From: Escherichia coli
GTDB taxonomy: Bacteria > Pseudomonadota > Gammaproteobacteria > Enterobacterales > Enterobacteriaceae
Length of the DNA: 64,000 bases
Assembly (NCBI RefSeq): GCF_045037415.1
Contig: NZ_CP173438.1
Reading direction: 5' to 3' (one strand)
Shown: positions 5,025 through 46,982 of the stretch, in pieces
Layout of the letters: the number at the start of each line of letters is the position of its first letter
Numbering within the stretch: the stretch's first letter is position 1
The notes under the pieces: model-generated
Told to the model about the DNA's origin: nothing
The model's database searches: none
Seen by the model: the letters and a program-made list of their open reading frames with translations, nothing else
Translations under genes and position numbers: made by a program

Positions 5025-5688
5025 ATGATCATTTCAAGACCAAATATTGATTCTGCAATTTCGGGACGTTACACTGTCTCCGCACCTTATAAAGCGGGTG
5101 CCGGGATTGGCGTCCTGAAATTGTCAACGGCGATGTATGACGCGCCAGCGTCTTTTTTATCGTCCGCATTTGCTCACATCCAGATTATGGTGGGCTGGGC
5201 GGGGGCACCGAAAGGTGCGCCGGTTCTCCGTTGACGCCGGTTACGCCAACCCCGTCCAGTTCACCACCAGTGAAATTGGCGTTTCCGGTGGTGGAAGTTT
5301 TTCACTGTCAACGGAGGCTGCCATCATGGCTACTGTCCTAACTTCCCCATTCCTAAAAATCGAAGTCGTCAACGGCAAGGCCGTTATTTTCTCCCTGCAT
5401 GTTGCCTGCCATTTCAAGCGCATGCACCAGAACATCGTTGACAAAATCGAGTATCTGAACTGCTCACGCGAGTTTTTTACCCGCAATTTCATACCGGGTA
5501 CTTATCACATCTACGGTGACTCCCTGCGTGGTTATTACATCACCCTTGATGGTCTGATGATGCTTCAGCTTGGGTTAAGTCTGCGCACAATGCGGTACTA
5601 CGAGAGCTGTATTGAAGCATTCCATGAGGCTGAAACCGTCCAGGGTCACTCCGCGTTCCGTCGTAATCAACGGGAGGTGCACCTATGA
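5025..5688 (+). pseudogene. Rha-family paralog, copy A, frameshifted between N-terminal extension and Rha domain
   Basis: 5025..5234 and 5137..5688 are in different frames; together they parallel the single 283-aa ORF at 5685 (shared IDSAI.GRYT..APYKAGAG start, Rha-like VNGKAVIFSLHVACHFKRMHQNIVDKI body); net +1 indel ~5180-5235. Confidence 0.4.
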
Positions 5689-35696: not shown

Positions 35697-38600
35697 ATGG
35701 GAAAAGGTGGCGGTAAGGCACACACGCCTCGTGAGGCGAAGGATAATCTCAAATCCACGCAGATGATGAGTGTGATTGATGCGATTGGTGAGGGACCGAT
35801 AGAAGGTCCGGTGAAGGGACTGCAGAGTATTCTGGTGAACAAAACCCCACTGACGGACACGGACGGCAATCCCGTGATACACGGTGTGACGGCGGTCTGG
35901 CGCGCCGGGGAGCAGGAGCAGACACCACCGGAAGGCTTTGAGTCCTCCGGAGCTGAAACCGGACTGGGCGTGGAAGTGACGAAGGCAAAACCGGTGACGC
36001 GCACCATTACGTCCGCGAACATTGACCGCCTGCGGGTTACCTTCGGGGTGCAGTCACTGGTGGAGACCACCTCAAAGGGTGACCGTAACCCGGCATCCGT
36101 CCGCCTGCTGATTCAGTTACAGCGTAACGGTAACTGGGTGACAGAAAAGGACGTCACCATTAACGGCAAGACCACCTCACAGTTCCTGGCCTCGGTGATT
36201 CTGGATAATCTGCCTCCCCGGCCCTTTAACATCCGGATGGTCAGGGAGACGGCGGACAGCACCACGGACCAGCTGCAGAATAAGACGCTGTGGTCGTCAT
36301 ACACCGAAATCATCGATGTGAAACAGTGCTACCCGAACACGGCCATTGTGGGGCTGCAGGTGGATGCGGAGCAGTTCGGCGGCCAGCAGATGACGGTGAA
36401 CTACCATATCCGCGGTCGCATCATCCAGGTGCCGTCAAACTATGACCCGGAAAAACGCACGTACAGTGGTATCTGGGACGGCAGTCTGAAACCGGCATAC
36501 AGCAACAACCCGGCCTGGTGCCTGTGGGACATGCTGACTCACCCGCGCTACGGCATGGGAAAACGTCTGGGGCGGCGGATGTGGACAAGTGGGCGCTGTA
36601 TGCCATCGGGCAGTACTGCGACCAGACGGTCCCGGATGGTTTCGGGGGGACCGAGCCGCGGATGACCTTTAATGCGTACCTGGCACAACAGCGTAAGGCG
36701 TGGGACGTTCTCAGTGATTTCTGCTCTGCGATGCGCTGTATGCCGGTATGGAACGGTCAGACGCTGACGTTCGTTCAGGACCGCCCGTCGGATGTGGTGT
36801 GGCCGTACACCAACAGCGATGTGGTGGTGGATGATAACGGCGTGGGATTCCGCTACAGCTTCAGTGCCCTGAAGGACCGGCACACGGCGGTGGAGGTGAA
36901 TTACACCGACCCGCAGAACGGCTGGCAGACCTCCACGGAACTGGTGGAAGACCCGGAAGCCATACTGCGCTACGGACGCAACCTGCTGAAGATGGACGCG
37001 TTCGGCTGTACCAGCCGCGGTCAGGCCCACCGTGCCGGACTGTGGGTGATAAAGACCGAACTGCTGGAAACGCAGACGGTGGATTTCACGCTCGGGTTCT
37101 CAGGGGCTGCGGCACACACCCGGTGACATTATTGAAATCTGTGATAATGACTATGCCGGGACCCTGACCGGCGGACGTGTCCTGTCCATTGATGCTGCCA
37201 CCCGCACCCTGACGCTGGACCGTGAGGTTACCCTGCCGGAGACAGGTACATCGGCGGTGAACCTGATTAACGGCAGCGGTAAGCCGGTGAGTGTGGACAT
37301 CACCGCACACCCCGCGCCGGACCGGATACAGGTCAGTACCCTGCCTGATGGTGTGGAGACATACGGGGTGTGGGGACTCTCCCTGCCGTCACTGCGCCGT
37401 CGCCTGTTCCGCTGTGTCTCCATCCGGGAAAACACGGACGGCACCTTTGCCATCACGGCGGTGCAGCACGTACCGGAAAAAGAAGCCATCGTGGATAACG
37501 GTGCCCGCTTTGAGCCGCAGTCAGGTTCCCTGAACAGCGTCATCCCACCGGCAGTGCAGCACCTGACGGTGGAGGTGAGCGCAGCTGACGGCCAGTATCT
37601 GGCGCAGGCGAAATGGGACACGCCGCGGGTGGTGAAGGGTGTGTGCTTCAGTCTGCGCCTGACCAGTGGTAAGGGAACGGATGCCAGACTGGTGACCACC
37701 GCCATCACCGCAGACACGGAGCACCGTTTCAGCGGCCTGCCGCTCGGGGAATACACCCTGACGGTGCGGGCGATAAACAGCTATGGCCAGCAGGGTGAAC
37801 CTGCCACCACCACCTTCCGGATTACCGCACCGGCAGCACCGTCGCGGATTGAGCTGACGCCGGGCTATTTTCAGATAACCGCAACGCCACATCTTGCCGT
37901 TTATGACCCGACGGTACAGTTTGAGTTCTGGTTCTCGGAAAAGCGGATTGCGGATATCAGGCAGGTTGAAACCGCAGCCCGCTATCTTGGCTCGGCGCTG
38001 TACTGGATAGCTGCCAGTATCAATATCAAACCGGGCCATGATTATTATTTTTATATCCGCAGTGTGAATACTGTTGGCAAATCGGCATTCGTGGAGGCTG
38101 TCGGTCGGGCGAGCGATGATGCGGAAGGTTACCTGGATTTTTTCAAAGGAGAAATCGGGAAAACACATCTGGCCCAGGAGCTGTGGACGCAGATTGATAA
38201 CGGTCAGCTTGCGCCGGACCTGGCTGAAATCAGGACGTCCATTACGAATGTCAGCAATGAAATCACGCAGACCGTCAATAAAAAACTGGAAAATCAGAGT
38301 GCGGCAATCCAGCAGATACAGAAAGTTCAGGTTGATACAAATAATAACCTGAACAGCATGTGGGCCGTGAAACTGCAGCAGATGCAGGACGGACGCCTTT
38401 ATATTGCGGGTATCGGTGCCGGTATTGAGAATACGCCAGCAGGAATGCAGAGTCAGGTGCTGCTGGCGGCAGACAGGATTGCGATGATTAATCCTGCGAA
38501 TGGCAACACAAAGCCGATGTTTGTTGGTCAGGGCGATCAGATATTTATGAATGAAGTGTTCCTGAAATATCTGACGGCTCCCACCATTACCAGCGGCGGT

Positions 38601-39170
38601 AATCCTCCGGCATTTTCCCTGACACCGGACGGGCGGCTGACGGCGAAAAATGCCGATATCAGCGGTAACGTGAATGCGAACTCCGGGACGCTCAACAACG
38701 TCACGATTAACGAGAACTGTCGGGTTCTGGGAAAATTGTCCGCGAACCAGATTGAAGGCGATCTCGTTAAAACAGTGGGCAAAGCTTTCCCCCGGGACTC
38801 CCGTGCACCGGAGCGGTGGCCATCAGGAACCATTACCGTCAGGGTTTATGACGATCAGCCGTTTGACCGGCAGATTGTTATTCCGGCGGTGGCATTCAGC
38901 GGCGCTAAACATGAGAAAGAGCATACTGATATTTACTCCTCATGCCGTCTGATAGTGCGGAAAAACGGTGCTGAAATTTATAACCGTACCGCGCTGGATA
39001 ATACGCTGATTTACAGTGGTGTTATTGATATGCCTGCCGGTCACGGTCACATGACACTGGAGTTTTCGGTGTCAGCATGGCTGGTAAATAACTGGTATCC
39101 CACAGCAAGTATCAGCGATTTGCTGGTTGTGGTGATGAAGAAAGCCACTGCAGGCATCACGATTAGCTGA
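35697..39170 (+). pseudogene. J: tail tip fibre / host specificity protein J, interrupted by two frameshifts
   Basis: Three ORFs (35697..36665, 36518..37126, 37257..39170) together collinear with lambda J; first and third share a frame, middle segment is shifted; 1-nt loss in G-run 36569-36572, 1-nt gain at ~37097-37103. Confidence 0.8.
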
Positions 39171-42900: not shown

Positions 42901-43014
42901 ACGCACTCGGTTGCGATTGGCTCACATGGACACACCATCACCGTTAACGCTGCTGGTAACGCGGAAAACACCGTCAAAAACATCGCATTTAACTATATTG
43001 TGAGGCTTGCATGA
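39988..43014 (+). CDS. stf: side tail fibre protein Stf (Ala/Ser-rich repeat shaft, His-box C-terminus)
   Basis: 1008 aa; N-terminus like lambda Stf; long low-complexity A/S/T-rich shaft; C-terminus with HTHS/HAHT repeats ending [18 protein letters not shown] as in lambda Stf. Confidence 0.85.
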
Positions 43015-43913
43015 TTACGCTCATTCTTTCTGCACCAGTAACCGAAATGGCTGAAGCATTTAAGCGGGTATTTGCAAATGCAGATAATGTGAATATTGTC
43101 GGAAAGCCATTTGAAACAATCAGAGAATTTGACTGCATGGTAAGTGCGGCAAATAGTTTCGGCCTGATGGATGGCGGTGTTGATGCCGCCATTACCACAT
43201 TCTTCGGTTCTCAGCTACAGGCCCGCGTTCAGAATCATATTCTTCGTGAATATCTCGGCGAGCAGCCTGTAGGTTCTGCATTTGTTATTGAAACGGGGCA
43301 TAATTATCACCCCTGGCTGGTACATGCGCCAACAATGCGTGTTCCGTTGACAATTGACGGAACAGACGCTGTATATAACGCAACTTGGGCAGCTCTACTT
43401 GCTATCTTTCAGCACAATAAAAACGCAACGACAGACAGGAAAATAAAGACGGTGGTATTCCCTGCAATGGGAGCCGGATGTGGTCAGGTGCCGTTTGAAA
43501 GCGTTGCCCGGCAGATGAAGCAGGCATGGGATAACTTTAATAAAAAAACAGAATCAATTAACTGGGAATACGCACAATCCCGCCAGTCGGCAGTATTTGG
43601 CACATATGCATACTGTCCGGGTAATTCTGTTTGCCGTTATGCGGATACTAAATATATTGGATGCGGCGATTATCGGACGTATTGCTCACGCTCCGGGCAG
43701 GTCTGTATTAACCCTGAACATCAGGCTGATGATGTACTGATACAACATCAGGCTAATAACCGGTTTCGCCCTGGTTCGCATATACACCGGATTAATCCAG
43801 AAAATCCTGTAGGTAATGTCATCTCTGGCGCACATAGCCACGGAAGTAGCATCGTTATTGGTGCTCACACCCATACGCTCAATAAACAATATTCTGTCTC
43901 TGATATTAAGTAG
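43011..43913 (+). CDS. macro-domain protein with tail-fibre-like His-box C-terminus
   Basis: ATGA overlap with stf; residues ~40-190 carry macro-domain blocks ([51 protein letters not shown]) by comparison with recalled E. coli YmdB; last ~45 aa ([18 protein letters not shown]) resemble fibre tips. Confidence 0.55.
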
Positions 43914-44618: not shown

Positions 44619-45995
44619 CTATGATATCCCTGAAATGTCCTCTTCAAGCTCTTTTACTGATTTCGCAATTTTAAATTTAAATTTTCTCTCTATTTCACTA
44701 TTGCTAAGTTTTTTTTCATTCTCTTTCCCTATCCACATAGAAACAATTTCTCGTTTCTGAGATATATGTAGATTGTCAAAGTTAGGTATGTATTTAAAAG
44801 TCTCCGCTCTACCCCTGCGGAGTTCATAGAAAGTTTTAATCAAAGACTTTGGTTTTATTTCTGATGAAAGGCCGAATCGGCGGATAAGATTATTGATCGT
44901 ATGATTAACAGCTCGAAGTTGAGCTGTTGACGTTATTTGTGAGAAGTACGATACCCATCCCAATCGTTTACCTTCAAACACACATCCCGTAATTCTAAGA
45001 TTTAGTTTCCACTGACAATATGCAACAGCTCGTTCTTTATCGTGCTTATTTTTAGCTTGTAGTAGAGCGTGTCTATATGCAGTAAAAATTTTTGCTAAGG
45101 ATGACTCAAATCTAAGAATGCTCTCATGTTTTATCAATAATTCTCGATTTTTTATGTGGTAGCCCAAAAAGTTGAAACTTTCATCCAAGCTGCCTACTTT
45201 GGATTTTGAGTTCTCTTCATTTAATGGATGTGGGTTTAAATTTAATGATTGAAGCTTATCAATGATATGAGATGCAATTTTTGTTGCTTGATCTTTTTGC
45301 GTTAAAATAAGAATGTCATCAACGTATCGCATGTACCATATGTCATGCATTTTATTGATTTCATTGTCGAAATCAGATAGTGATATTTCAGCTAAAATGT
45401 TTGATATTGCTAACCCCTGAGGTACTCCTCTGGTATTATTAGGGACACCTTTGCTTCCTGTACTTCCACTTACAGTAGGCACGATTAATGATGATGTTAT
45501 TAACTGCCTAATTTCTTTTTTTCTAATCTTATTTTTTATTGCATTAAATATCAATTTATGTTCAATTGAAGGATAGAAACTTTTGAGATCTATTTTTGCA
45601 TATTCAGCATATAGATCGCTGTTTAATGCATTTTTCAATAAGTCAATTACTGTATGTGGTAGTTTTAATCTGGAGTTAGGATATATTTCTGTAAGGCATT
45701 CACAGAGAGCCCTAAGGGTAATTCTGTCCCTGGCAGTTGGTATGGAAATCTGTCTGGGGATAGAGTTAGCCCCTTTAGATATTAATTTTTCTTTATATGC
45801 TGTAAATTTATAATTTCCACAATTAACCTTTTCAAAAATAAAAGTGATCTCATTCTTTATTGTTAAATCAAGTTTTGATGGACGAATCCGATCTATGCCA
45901 ATCGCTCCTGATTCTTTGATTTTTTCATTGTATACTTTTAGAAGGTTTTTTTTCGAGAATGACTTTTTAAAAACTCTGCTTGCATTCATAGTCAA
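44619..45995 (-). CDS. reverse transcriptase (defence-associated / retron-like type), with C-terminal extension
   Basis: 458 aa; RT blocks RQISIPTARDRITLRAL, YAKIDLKSFYPSIEH, GVPQGLAISNILAEISL, catalytic YVDD (YMRYVDDILILT); AT-rich codon usage. Confidence 0.8.
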   Translation of the reverse strand: MTMNASRVFKKSFSKKNLLKVYNEKIKESGAIGIDRIRPSKLDLTIKNEITFIFEKVNCGNYKFTAYKEKLISKGANSIPRQISIPTARDRITLRALCECLTEIYPNSRLKLPHTVIDLLKNALNSDLYAEYAKIDLKSFYPSIEHKLIFNAIKNKIRKKEIRQLITSSLIVPTVSGSTGSKGVPNNTRGVPQGLAISNILAEISLSDFDNEINKMHDIWYMRYVDDILILTQKDQATKIASHIIDKLQSLNLNPHPLNEENSKSKVGSLDESFNFLGYHIKNRELLIKHESILRFESSLAKIFTAYRHALLQAKNKHDKERAVAYCQWKLNLRITGCVFEGKRLGWVSYFSQITSTAQLRAVNHTINNLIRRFGLSSEIKPKSLIKTFYELRRGRAETFKYIPNFDNLHISQKREIVSMWIGKENEKKLSNSEIERKFKFKIAKSVKELEEDISGIS

Positions 45996-46518
45996 TCCAA
46001 AGACATATTAATGGGAGGATATAAAGGCCGACAGTAATAAACATTCGACGTAATATCCATAATTTAACAATTATTTTTTCTTTTTGTGTGGGGAGTCTAG
46101 TCGTAAGTCCAACTTGAGTTACCCTTGAAACTTTATCATCTATGTCACGATGATTCTCAACCTCATTGAGCAAATTAAAATATTTTTCTTTCTGTTCAAG
46201 AGTTAACTGTTGGCCGTTATTAATATCAAAATAGAGTCTCTGTAGTGCAATATAATTCCTTCTCATGGCTATTGCTCGACCACGATAATCTAGGTTAGAT
46301 ACGATCAGAGAAATACCCAGTAGAGCCACTGAAAGTATTGCCGCAACGATATCTGTATTATCTCCTAGAAATTTTGGAAATCGTAACGTTATAATTGAAA
46401 GTACCGCACTCAATATAGCATACCAAACGAGGATAAATTGAGAGTGTTTTTCAAGCCATTCTAGTCTATGGTGCGCTTGAATACGGGCTTTATATGTAAA
46501 CCAAATATTTTCATGCAT
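45967..46518 (-). CDS. small membrane protein (two adjacent TM helices, SLATT-like), putative effector
   Basis: 183 aa from MHENIW (AAGGA RBS 6 nt upstream); helices FILVWYAILSAVLSIITLRF and IVAAILSVALLGISLIVSNL; overlaps RT start by 29 nt. Confidence 0.55.
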   Translation of the reverse strand: MHENIWFTYKARIQAHHRLEWLEKHSQFILVWYAILSAVLSIITLRFPKFLGDNTDIVAAILSVALLGISLIVSNLDYRGRAIAMRRNYIALQRLYFDINNGQQLTLEQKEKYFNLLNEVENHRDIDDKVSRVTQVGLTTRLPTQKEKIIVKLWILRRMFITVGLYILPLICLWIDYECKQSF

Positions 46519-46762: not shown

Positions 46763-46982
46763 CTAGGTATCTTTCAGAGTGTCCTGAACAAAAATTTTAA
46801 CTGAATCTTTATCGGCGGTGCGTGTAACAGAAAGGTCATCATTGCTGGTGGCTTTTACGATCACCTCTACATCTTCATAACGCTTACCGGTGCGTCGGGT
46901 TAATTCTTCCTTCTAACGCATCCACAGCGCTGTTTGGCAGTTTAGTCATTTTCTCTTTGGCTATGCAGATCTCAATACGCAT
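46763..46982 (-). pseudogene. dinI-like (DinI/MsgA family) gene with +1 frameshift
   Basis: [25 protein letters not shown] then frame change to [27 protein letters not shown]; extra A in GGAAGAATT relative to an in-frame reading. Confidence 0.65.

What the first reader, a model, noticed from the sequence alone, without database searches (positions are those of the whole stretch)
36560..37110. Host-specificity gene J carries two opposite 1-nt frameshifts 530 nt apart
J is collinear with lambda J but split into three ORFs. A 1-nt loss in a G-run (36569-36572; GGGG where five G are needed to read LGAADVDKW) shifts the frame. A 1-nt gain near 37097-37103 restores it. The conserved protein sequence is therefore intact in all three pieces, but linear translation stops at 36665. 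Either two real inactivating mutations (prophage decay) or two homopolymer sequencing errors.
Basis: seen in the sequence. Interest (0 to 1): 0.45.

Follow-up and report, generated by a model that had tools for sequence, protein, structure and literature searches.

The report
One real frameshift, one sequencing artefact
The prophage tail-tip gene J does carry the two opposite 1-nt shifts, but the lost G is a real inherited inactivating mutation already annotated in many E. coli ST131 genomes, while the extra T is almost certainly a base-calling error at a methylated GGTCTC site, so the finding is ordinary.

Summary
J (35697-39170, +) differs from an intact allele (strain R8) by G4 instead of G5 at 36569-36572 and by one extra T at 37097. 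Translation stops at 36665.

The two shifts have different origins.

- **The G loss is real.** The exact G4 sequence is in 43 complete RefSeq genomes, where PGAP marks J as frameshifted. Its truncated 322-aa product is recorded on 93 contigs. With the extra T removed, the window's J is identical to that of FDAARGOS_1265.
- **The extra T is an artefact.** It turns GGTCTC into GGTTCTC. GGTCTC/GAGACC is the Eco31I-type (EcoMI) site, fully methylated in ST131. Against FDAARGOS_1265 over 49.9 kb the window has only two indels, and both are this same change (5224 and 37097). Chance of that is about 2e-6. Four unrelated assemblies carry the same insertion at the same J site plus further errors at other GAGACC/GGTCTC sites. 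At least 44 other assemblies, including EC958 and JJ1886, have a single T.

The true allele is most likely a J pseudogene with one frameshift. This is already known and of low interest, apart from a practical warning that Eco31I-motif errors create false frameshifts in ST131 assemblies.

The parts
35697..39170 (+). gpJ (lambda TipJ-type tail-tip / host-specificity gene), a pseudogene
   Evidence: The repaired or intact allele matches NF049904 lambda_TipJ over 1-1157 at 2362 bits. It lies in lambda-like order after the L, C40-peptidase and tail-assembly genes and before lom and the tail fibre gene. PGAP labels it 'gpJ ... frameshifted' in relatives.
36569..36572 (+). G4 run where the intact allele has G5: a real -1 frameshift after codon G292
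   Evidence: Alignment. The exact 61-mer is in 43 RefSeq complete genomes. The G5 version of the same local haplotype is in 429 records. The truncated 322-aa product is on 93 contigs and the downstream 835-aa ORF on 63 contigs.
36663..36665 (+). Premature stop codon (TGA) reached in the shifted frame, after 30 out-of-frame residues
   Evidence: the frame-0 ORF 35697-36665 is 322 aa.
37095..37101 (+). GGTTCTC, an Eco31I/EcoMI site GGTCTC with one extra T (37097 or 37098): most likely a base-calling or consensus artefact
   Evidence: single T in AZ146, R8 and FDAARGOS_1265. (motif statistics). (same insertion in four other assemblies that also show other Eco31I-motif errors). (single T in at least 44 assemblies, including EC958 and JJ1886). 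(motif methylated in ST131).
36573..37096 (+). Stretch of J whose native reading frame is offset by one base from the J start, between the two shifts. It lies inside ORF 36518-37126.
   Evidence: the translation reads AADVDKWALYAIG...TVDFTLG, the native J sequence.
37098..39170 (+). C-terminal part of J. It is back in the start frame in the window only because of the extra T. In the lineage allele (G4 plus single T) it continues the shifted frame as one 883-codon ORF.
5222..5228 (+). Second GGTCTC->GGTTCTC insertion, which frameshifts the ash-family gene (about 5025-5688). It is the same artefact class and supports the reading of 37097.
   Evidence: Only 1 of 117 records shares it, and that record is the error-rich assembly A1.S1.126.

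Best explanation
The window comes from a lambdoid prophage of an E. coli ST131-type chromosome. Its tail-tip gene J carries one genuine, vertically inherited 1-nt deletion (G5->G4 at 36569-36572). This deletion ends translation at 36665, after 292 native and 30 out-of-frame residues, so J is a pseudogene and the prophage cannot supply its own tail tip. The second shift, an extra T at 37097, is not a mutation. It is a consensus error at a GGTCTC/GAGACC site, which the ST131 Eco31I-type system (M1/M2.EcoMI) methylates as m5C on one strand and m6A on the other. Errors of this kind are typical of nanopore-derived assemblies. The true sequence of the strain is therefore most likely G4 plus a single T, as in FDAARGOS_1265 and about 40 other genomes. 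What is shown: both differences, their distribution among genomes, and the association with the motif. What is inferred: that the window's assembly derives from methylation-sensitive long reads, and that loss of J makes the prophage defective for tail formation.
For: G4 is real:
- The exact 61-mer is in 43 complete genomes from many laboratories, hosts and countries.
- PGAP marks J as 'frameshifted' in AZ146 and FDAARGOS_1265.
- With the T removed, the window's J equals FDAARGOS_1265's J exactly.
- The 322-aa truncated product is on 93 contigs and the 835-aa downstream ORF on 63 contigs, from NCBI, ENA and Logan.
- G5 is the widespread intact state, found in 429 records.

The T is an artefact:
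- Window vs FDAARGOS_1265 over 49,864 nt shows 2 SNPs and 2 indels. Both indels are GGTCTC->GGTTCTC.
- There are only 13 Eco31I sites in 64 kb, so the chance of both indels landing in them is about 2e-6.
- No RefSeq complete genome has the window's J exactly.
- The TT allele at the J site occurs in only 19 records, representing 4 sources: the Esc series, 446/447, UID2309220027 and A1.S1.126.
- Each of those sources has further errors at other GAGACC/GGTCTC sites relative to EC958. Esc28 has 3 of 4 differences there, A1.S1.126 has 6 of 10 events (plus Dam, Dcm and homopolymer errors), 447 has 2 of 2, and UID has 2 of 4.
- A1.S1.126 has TT in both J paralogs and also at 5224.
- GAG(m6A)CC is 100% methylated in ST131 EC958 (PMC4659465).
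- Methylation-induced nanopore consensus errors are documented (PMC11610573, PMC11610603).
- The window-specific middle ORF product is absent from a collection of 15 billion proteins.
Against: - The sequencing technology of the window's source is unknown and no reads are available.
- The published descriptions of methylation-induced errors that I read concern mainly substitutions, not 1-nt insertions.
- I found no paper naming GGTCTC as an error motif.
- The window lacks the GATC/CCWGG errors seen in A1.S1.126, so its error rate is much lower.
- The window and A1.S1.126 share both T insertions. In principle that could reflect common descent rather than a common artefact.
- I did not verify that the window's strain carries the EcoMI system, which lies outside the window.
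Confidence: 0.87

Rival explanations
1. Both shifts are real. After the G loss inactivated J, a second, neutral 1-nt insertion accumulated in the dead gene, as progressive prophage decay.
For: J is already a pseudogene in this lineage, so a second indel would be neutral. The window and A1.S1.126 share TT at 37097 and at 5224, which could be read as shared ancestry.
Against: - Both window-private indels fall in the same 6-nt methylated motif and are the same change.
- The identical insertion appears in the paralogous J of strains that lack this prophage, and those strains show other Eco31I-motif errors.
- A1.S1.126 is visibly error-rich at Dam, Dcm and Eco31I motifs.
- None of the other G4 complete genomes has TT.
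Confidence: 0.05
2. Both shifts are sequencing errors and the strain has an intact 1157-aa J.
For: G5 is a homopolymer, a classic site of error. Intact G5 alleles exist on an otherwise identical J background in R8 and Ec-U4.
Against: G4 is found in 43 complete genomes. These include assemblies that are free of Eco31I-motif errors across this region (AZ146, FDAARGOS_1265). Its products are recorded on 93 and 63 contigs from several sources. Strains from one study differ from each other: R3, R12, S8 and S13 have G4 while R8 has G5.
Confidence: 0.04
3. The extra T was copied into this J by gene conversion, or by assembly mis-phasing, from the 99.8%-identical J of a second prophage next to ompW, which carries G5 plus TT.
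For: A second J paralog exists that differs by only 5 SNPs. In L005-L008 it carries TT. The nearest distinguishing sites lie about 530 nt on either side. The two prophages do recombine, as inversions show.
Against: In at least 44 assemblies, including EC958 (J intact, WP_000514710.1), JJ1886, THO-003 and p4A, the paralog has a single T. The TT in the paralog is therefore the same artefact and there was no real donor. This idea also does not explain the identical insertion at 5224, which has no paralog (one place per record).
Confidence: 0.02
4. The G4 site is a recoding or phase-variable site. A -1 ribosomal slip on G_GGG, or slipped-strand G4/G5 switching, would restore J expression.
For: A -1 slip on CUG-GGG-C would restore the exact native sequence (read directly from the sequence). 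G4 and G5 both occur on otherwise identical J backgrounds.
Against: There is no X_XXY_YYZ heptamer. The ancestral and widespread state is an ordinary in-frame G5. A run of 4-5 G is too short for typical contingency loci. Only two lengths are seen.
Confidence: 0.02

Closest known systems
Frameshifted gpJ pseudogene annotated in RefSeq ST131 genomes (for example BE932_RS04790 in Ecol_AZ146 and I6J95_RS10625 in FDAARGOS_1265)
   Same: Same prophage, same insertion site next to yecD/aspS, same G4 allele. The sequence is identical to the window's J once the extra T is removed.
   Different: Those records have a single T at the GGTCTC site and so only one frameshift (3473 nt).
Bacteriophage lambda gpJ / NCBIfam NF049904 lambda_TipJ
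   Same: The intact allele gives a full-length match (1-1157 vs profile 1-1163, 2362 bits). Gene order is lambda-like: L, K-like C40 peptidase, I, J, lom, stf.
   Different: The gene is inactivated here. Other phage J proteins sampled in the phage collection are 78-84% identical. Lambda itself was not compared directly.
Methylation-induced errors in nanopore bacterial assemblies (Lohde et al. 2024, PMC11610573; Liu et al. 2024, PMC11610603)
   Same: The errors are tied to strain-specific methylation motifs, recur at the same positions in independent assemblies, and are absent from other assemblies of the same lineage.
   Different: Those papers describe mainly purine/purine or pyrimidine/pyrimidine substitutions. 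Here the change at this site is a 1-nt insertion in the Eco31I motif. GAGACC->GAAACC substitutions also occur in the related assemblies. The technology behind the window is not known.
Eco31I-type IIS R-M system EcoMI of ST131 (Forde et al. 2015, PMC4659465)
   Same: Its recognition site GGTCTC/GAGACC is exactly the sequence hit by both window-private insertions.
   Different: The system itself lies outside the window on GI-leuX. Its presence in the source strain is inferred, not shown.

Membership tests
lambda TipJ (gpJ) tail-tip protein | Full-length match to NF049904 above its curated cut-off | tested here: met
   2362 bits against a cut-off of 1950, residues 1-1157, for the intact R8 allele. 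That allele differs from the window only at the two indels.
lambda TipJ (gpJ) tail-tip protein | Lambda-like tail gene order around it (M/L/K/I upstream, lom and side tail fibre downstream) | tested here: met
   Annotations of identical loci.
Frameshift pseudogene (real inactivating mutation) | Indel relative to intact orthologues, leading to a premature stop | tested here: met
   G5->G4 with a stop at 36663-36665.
Frameshift pseudogene (real inactivating mutation) | Indel reproduced in independent assemblies of the lineage | tested here: met
   For G4: 43 complete genomes and 93 contigs. For the extra T this feature is not met. It appears only in assemblies that carry other motif errors.
Methylation-motif consensus error | The change lies inside a motif known to be methylated in the lineage | tested here: met
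   GGTCTC is the EcoMI site, 100% m6A-methylated in EC958. Both window-private indels lie in it.
Methylation-motif consensus error | Recurrence at this and other instances of the motif in unrelated assemblies, and absence from most assemblies of the same lineage | tested here: met
Methylation-motif consensus error | Strand-biased or ambiguous base calls in the raw reads, which disappear in PCR/WGA or short-read data | not testable with these tools
   No reads are available for the window's source.
Programmed ribosomal frameshift | Slippery heptamer with the shifted arrangement conserved among relatives | tested here: not met
   The site reads CUG GGG CGG, which is not an X_XXY_YYZ heptamer. 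Relatives overwhelmingly have the unshifted G5 in-frame gene.
Phase-variable homopolymer (contingency locus) | Long tract with many length variants among close relatives | tested here: not met
   Only G4 and G5 are seen, and the tract is just 4-5 nt.

The most novel reading that the evidence does not exclude
The GGTCTC->GGTTCTC insertions are genuine and arise recurrently. In that case Eco31I/EcoMI sites in ST131 would be mutational hot spots, for example through nicking or repair at hemi-modified type IIS sites. The same 1-nt insertion would then have arisen independently in at least five lineages and in two paralogous J genes.
Probability: 0.03. Interest if true: 0.55.

Novelty: already known. 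Interest (0 to 1): 0.1.

Why it matters
Biologically it matters little. A J pseudogene in a resident ST131 prophage is ordinary prophage decay and is already flagged by PGAP. The practical value is for assembly quality. Several public ST131 assemblies carry false frameshifts and substitutions at Eco31I (GGTCTC/GAGACC) sites, including in J of two prophages and in an ash-family gene. These errors can be mistaken for pseudogenisation, inflate SNP or cgMLST distances, and mislead scans for frameshifts. Masking this motif, or polishing with methylation-free data, would remove them.

Tried and rejected
1. **Gene conversion or mis-phasing from the paralogous J of the ompW prophage.** This looked attractive, because the paralog showed G5 plus TT. 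I rejected it when one search showed that at least 44 assemblies have a single T in that paralog, and searches showed the TT-bearing assemblies have other Eco31I-motif errors.

2. **My first reading of A1.S1.126.** I initially took its prophage-A J to have a single T, which would have argued against a systematic error. One search showed it actually has TT. Its one gap relative to the window is a C5->C4 error at 38789.

3. **The 14-bp and T7/T6 differences from Ecol_AZ146.** I considered these as signs of window errors. Searches show the window has the common state and AZ146 is the odd one out.

4. **A literature search for GGTCTC as a named nanopore error motif.** It found nothing relevant.

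5. **Exact look-ups of the window-specific middle ORF with three alternative starts.** They found nothing. This supports the artefact reading but is not decisive, because gene callers may choose other starts.

6. **Not attempted:** checking for the EcoMI genes in the source strain (they lie outside the window), and identifying the source assembly.

Full report
**Observation**

The ORF map shows J broken into three pieces: 35697-36665 (frame 0, 322 aa), 36518-37126 (frame 2, 202 aa) and 37257-39170 (frame 0). Translations of these pieces carry continuous J-like sequence.

A megablast of 35697-39170 against 5,426 complete E. coli genomes found near-identical J genes, mostly in O25b:H4-ST131 strains. 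No record matched the window exactly.

I aligned the window with a frameshifted relative (Ecol_AZ146) and an intact one (strain R8, WP_112032103.1). The window differs from the intact allele at exactly two positions:
- one G missing from the run at 36569-36572;
- one extra T at 37097 (GGGTTCTCAG vs GGGTCTCAG).

Repairing both gives an uninterrupted 1157-aa ORF. That ORF is a full-length lambda_TipJ (NF049904, 2362 bits, cut-off 1950).

**The G loss is real**

- AZ146 and 27 other top hits share G4.
- The exact 61-mer around G4 occurs in 43 complete genomes from many countries, hosts and laboratories.
- The G5 version of the same local haplotype occurs in 429 records and is clearly the ancestral, intact state.
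- PGAP annotates J as 'frameshifted' in AZ146 and FDAARGOS_1265.
- With the extra T removed, the window's J is byte-identical to that of FDAARGOS_1265.
- In a collection of 15 billion proteins, the 322-aa truncated product is on 93 contigs. The 835-aa ORF downstream of the shift (G4 plus single T) is on 63 contigs. Sources are NCBI, ENA and Logan.

The consequence is 292 native residues, then 30 out-of-frame residues, then a stop at 36663-36665.

**The extra T is an artefact**

Comparing the whole window with AZ146 gave 3 SNPs and 4 indels. Follow-up showed that the 14-bp and T7 differences are peculiarities of AZ146, not of the window.

Against FDAARGOS_1265, 49,864 aligned bases differ by only 2 SNPs and 2 indels. 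Both indels are the same change, GGTCTC->GGTTCTC. One is at 5224, in an ash-family gene. The other is at 37097, in J. The region holds only 13 GGTCTC/GAGACC sites. Even with a generous estimate, the chance that two random insertions both land in them is about 2e-6.

GGTCTC/GAGACC is the site of the Eco31I-type R-M system EcoMI of ST131. In strain EC958, 100% of GAGACC adenines are m6A-methylated, and m5C is predicted on the other strand (Forde et al. 2015, PMC4659465).

The TT allele at the J site occurs in 19 records, which represent four sources:
- a clonal 'Esc' series;
- strains 446 and 447;
- UID2309220027;
- A1.S1.126.

In most of these it lies in a second, 99.8%-identical J belonging to a prophage next to ompW. 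That paralog has a single T in at least 44 other assemblies, including EC958 (where J is intact), JJ1886, JJ1887, the AR_ and Ecol_ series, THO-003 and p4A.

Each TT-bearing assembly also shows further differences from EC958 concentrated at other Eco31I sites:

| Assembly | Region compared | Differences at Eco31I sites | Other differences |
|---|---|---|---|
| Esc28 | 46.8 kb | 3 of 4 | 1 unexplained substitution |
| A1.S1.126 | 46.2 kb | 6 of 10 events | 1 GATC, 1 CCWGG, 2 homopolymer |
| 447 | 7 kb | 2 of 2 | none |
| UID2309220027 | 7 kb | 2 of 4 | 1 homopolymer, 1 substitution |

A1.S1.126 carries TT in both J paralogs and at 5224. It also has further GGTCTC->GGTTCTC and GAGACC->GAGAACC changes where the window is clean.

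This is the signature of methylation-induced consensus errors described for nanopore assemblies (PMC11610573, PMC11610603). The window-specific middle ORF product is not in the large protein collection.

**Mechanism and consequence**

The strain most likely carries G4 plus a single T. That is a J pseudogene with one frameshift, in a prophage integrated beside yecD/aspS.

From established lambda biology, gpJ is the tail-tip and host-range protein required for tail assembly. A product truncated at residue 292 should therefore leave this prophage unable to make infectious particles on its own. This step is inferred, not shown.

The paralogous J of the ompW prophage differs by only two residues (C650R, T710A). 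It is intact in EC958, so complementation in trans is conceivable but untested.

**Rivals**

- **Two real mutations.** This cannot explain the motif coincidence or the recurrence in strains that lack this prophage.
- **Two errors.** This contradicts the breadth of support for G4.
- **Gene conversion from the paralog.** There is no genuine TT donor.
- **Recoding or phase variation at the G run.** There is no slippery heptamer, no conservation of the shifted state, and no range of tract lengths.

**Limits**

I could not see reads, identify the source assembly or its technology, or confirm that the EcoMI genes are present in the source strain. The literature I read describes mainly substitutions rather than insertions at methylated motifs. 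No paper I found names GGTCTC as an error motif.

**Verdict**

One shift is a known, annotated inactivating frameshift. The other is a sequencing artefact. Interest is low, apart from the practical warning about Eco31I-motif errors in ST131 assemblies.

Noticed in passing
window 5222-5228 (ash-family gene, about 5025-5688, +): A second GGTCTC->GGTTCTC insertion frameshifts the ash-family gene. 116 of 117 records have a single T. Only the error-rich assembly A1.S1.126 shares the insertion, and PGAP calls its ash gene 'frameshifted'.
   Followed up: yes
window 15562 (inside the DUF6645 pseudogene, about 15126-16562): The window has a private T (ACGTGTGG) where AZ146, FDAARGOS_1265 and A1.S1.126 all have C (ACGCGTGG). 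I cannot tell whether this is a real SNP or a C->T call at a modified cytosine.
   Followed up: no
L010 (A1.S1.126, 3891000-3940900); also for SCAID WND1-2021, R3 and the AVS strains: In several ST131 genomes this prophage's J and the lom/tail-fibre junction lie about 0.5 Mb apart or in opposite orientation. In A1.S1.126, J-lom is followed by a different tail-fibre region next to trpA and an ompW fragment. This suggests large inversions by recombination between the two near-identical J-lom segments of the yecD and ompW prophages.
   Followed up: partly
window 44619-46518 (-) and 43011-43913 (+): Prophage cargo at the right end, annotated in identical relatives. A reverse-transcriptase-domain gene overlaps a SLATT-domain gene, which looks like a retron or other RT-based defence system. 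A macro-domain protein is encoded between the tail fibre gene and the tail fibre assembly gene.
   Followed up: no
window 11220-14078: A DNA cytosine methyltransferase gene (11220-12260, +) sits beside a convergent pair of genes on the minus strand: a HEPN-like nuclease (12229-12918) and a DUF262 protein (12921-14078). This looks like a defence island inside the prophage.
   Followed up: no
window 22279 and 39967: Ecol_AZ146 has a private 14-bp tandem duplication (TACAGTCGCTGAAC) at the terminase/head-tail-joining overlap, and T7 instead of T6 upstream of the tail fibre gene. The window has the common state at both sites (222 and 53 records respectively).
   Followed up: yes
window 38789 (CCCCC in TTTCCCCCGGG, inside J): A1.S1.126 (both J paralogs) and UID2309220027 read C4 here, another recurrent assembly error inside J. 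The window has C5, like the reference genomes.
   Followed up: partly
window about 46763-46982: Identical relatives annotate a DinI-like gene at the prophage/chromosome junction as 'frameshifted'. This may be another decayed gene of the same prophage.
   Followed up: no
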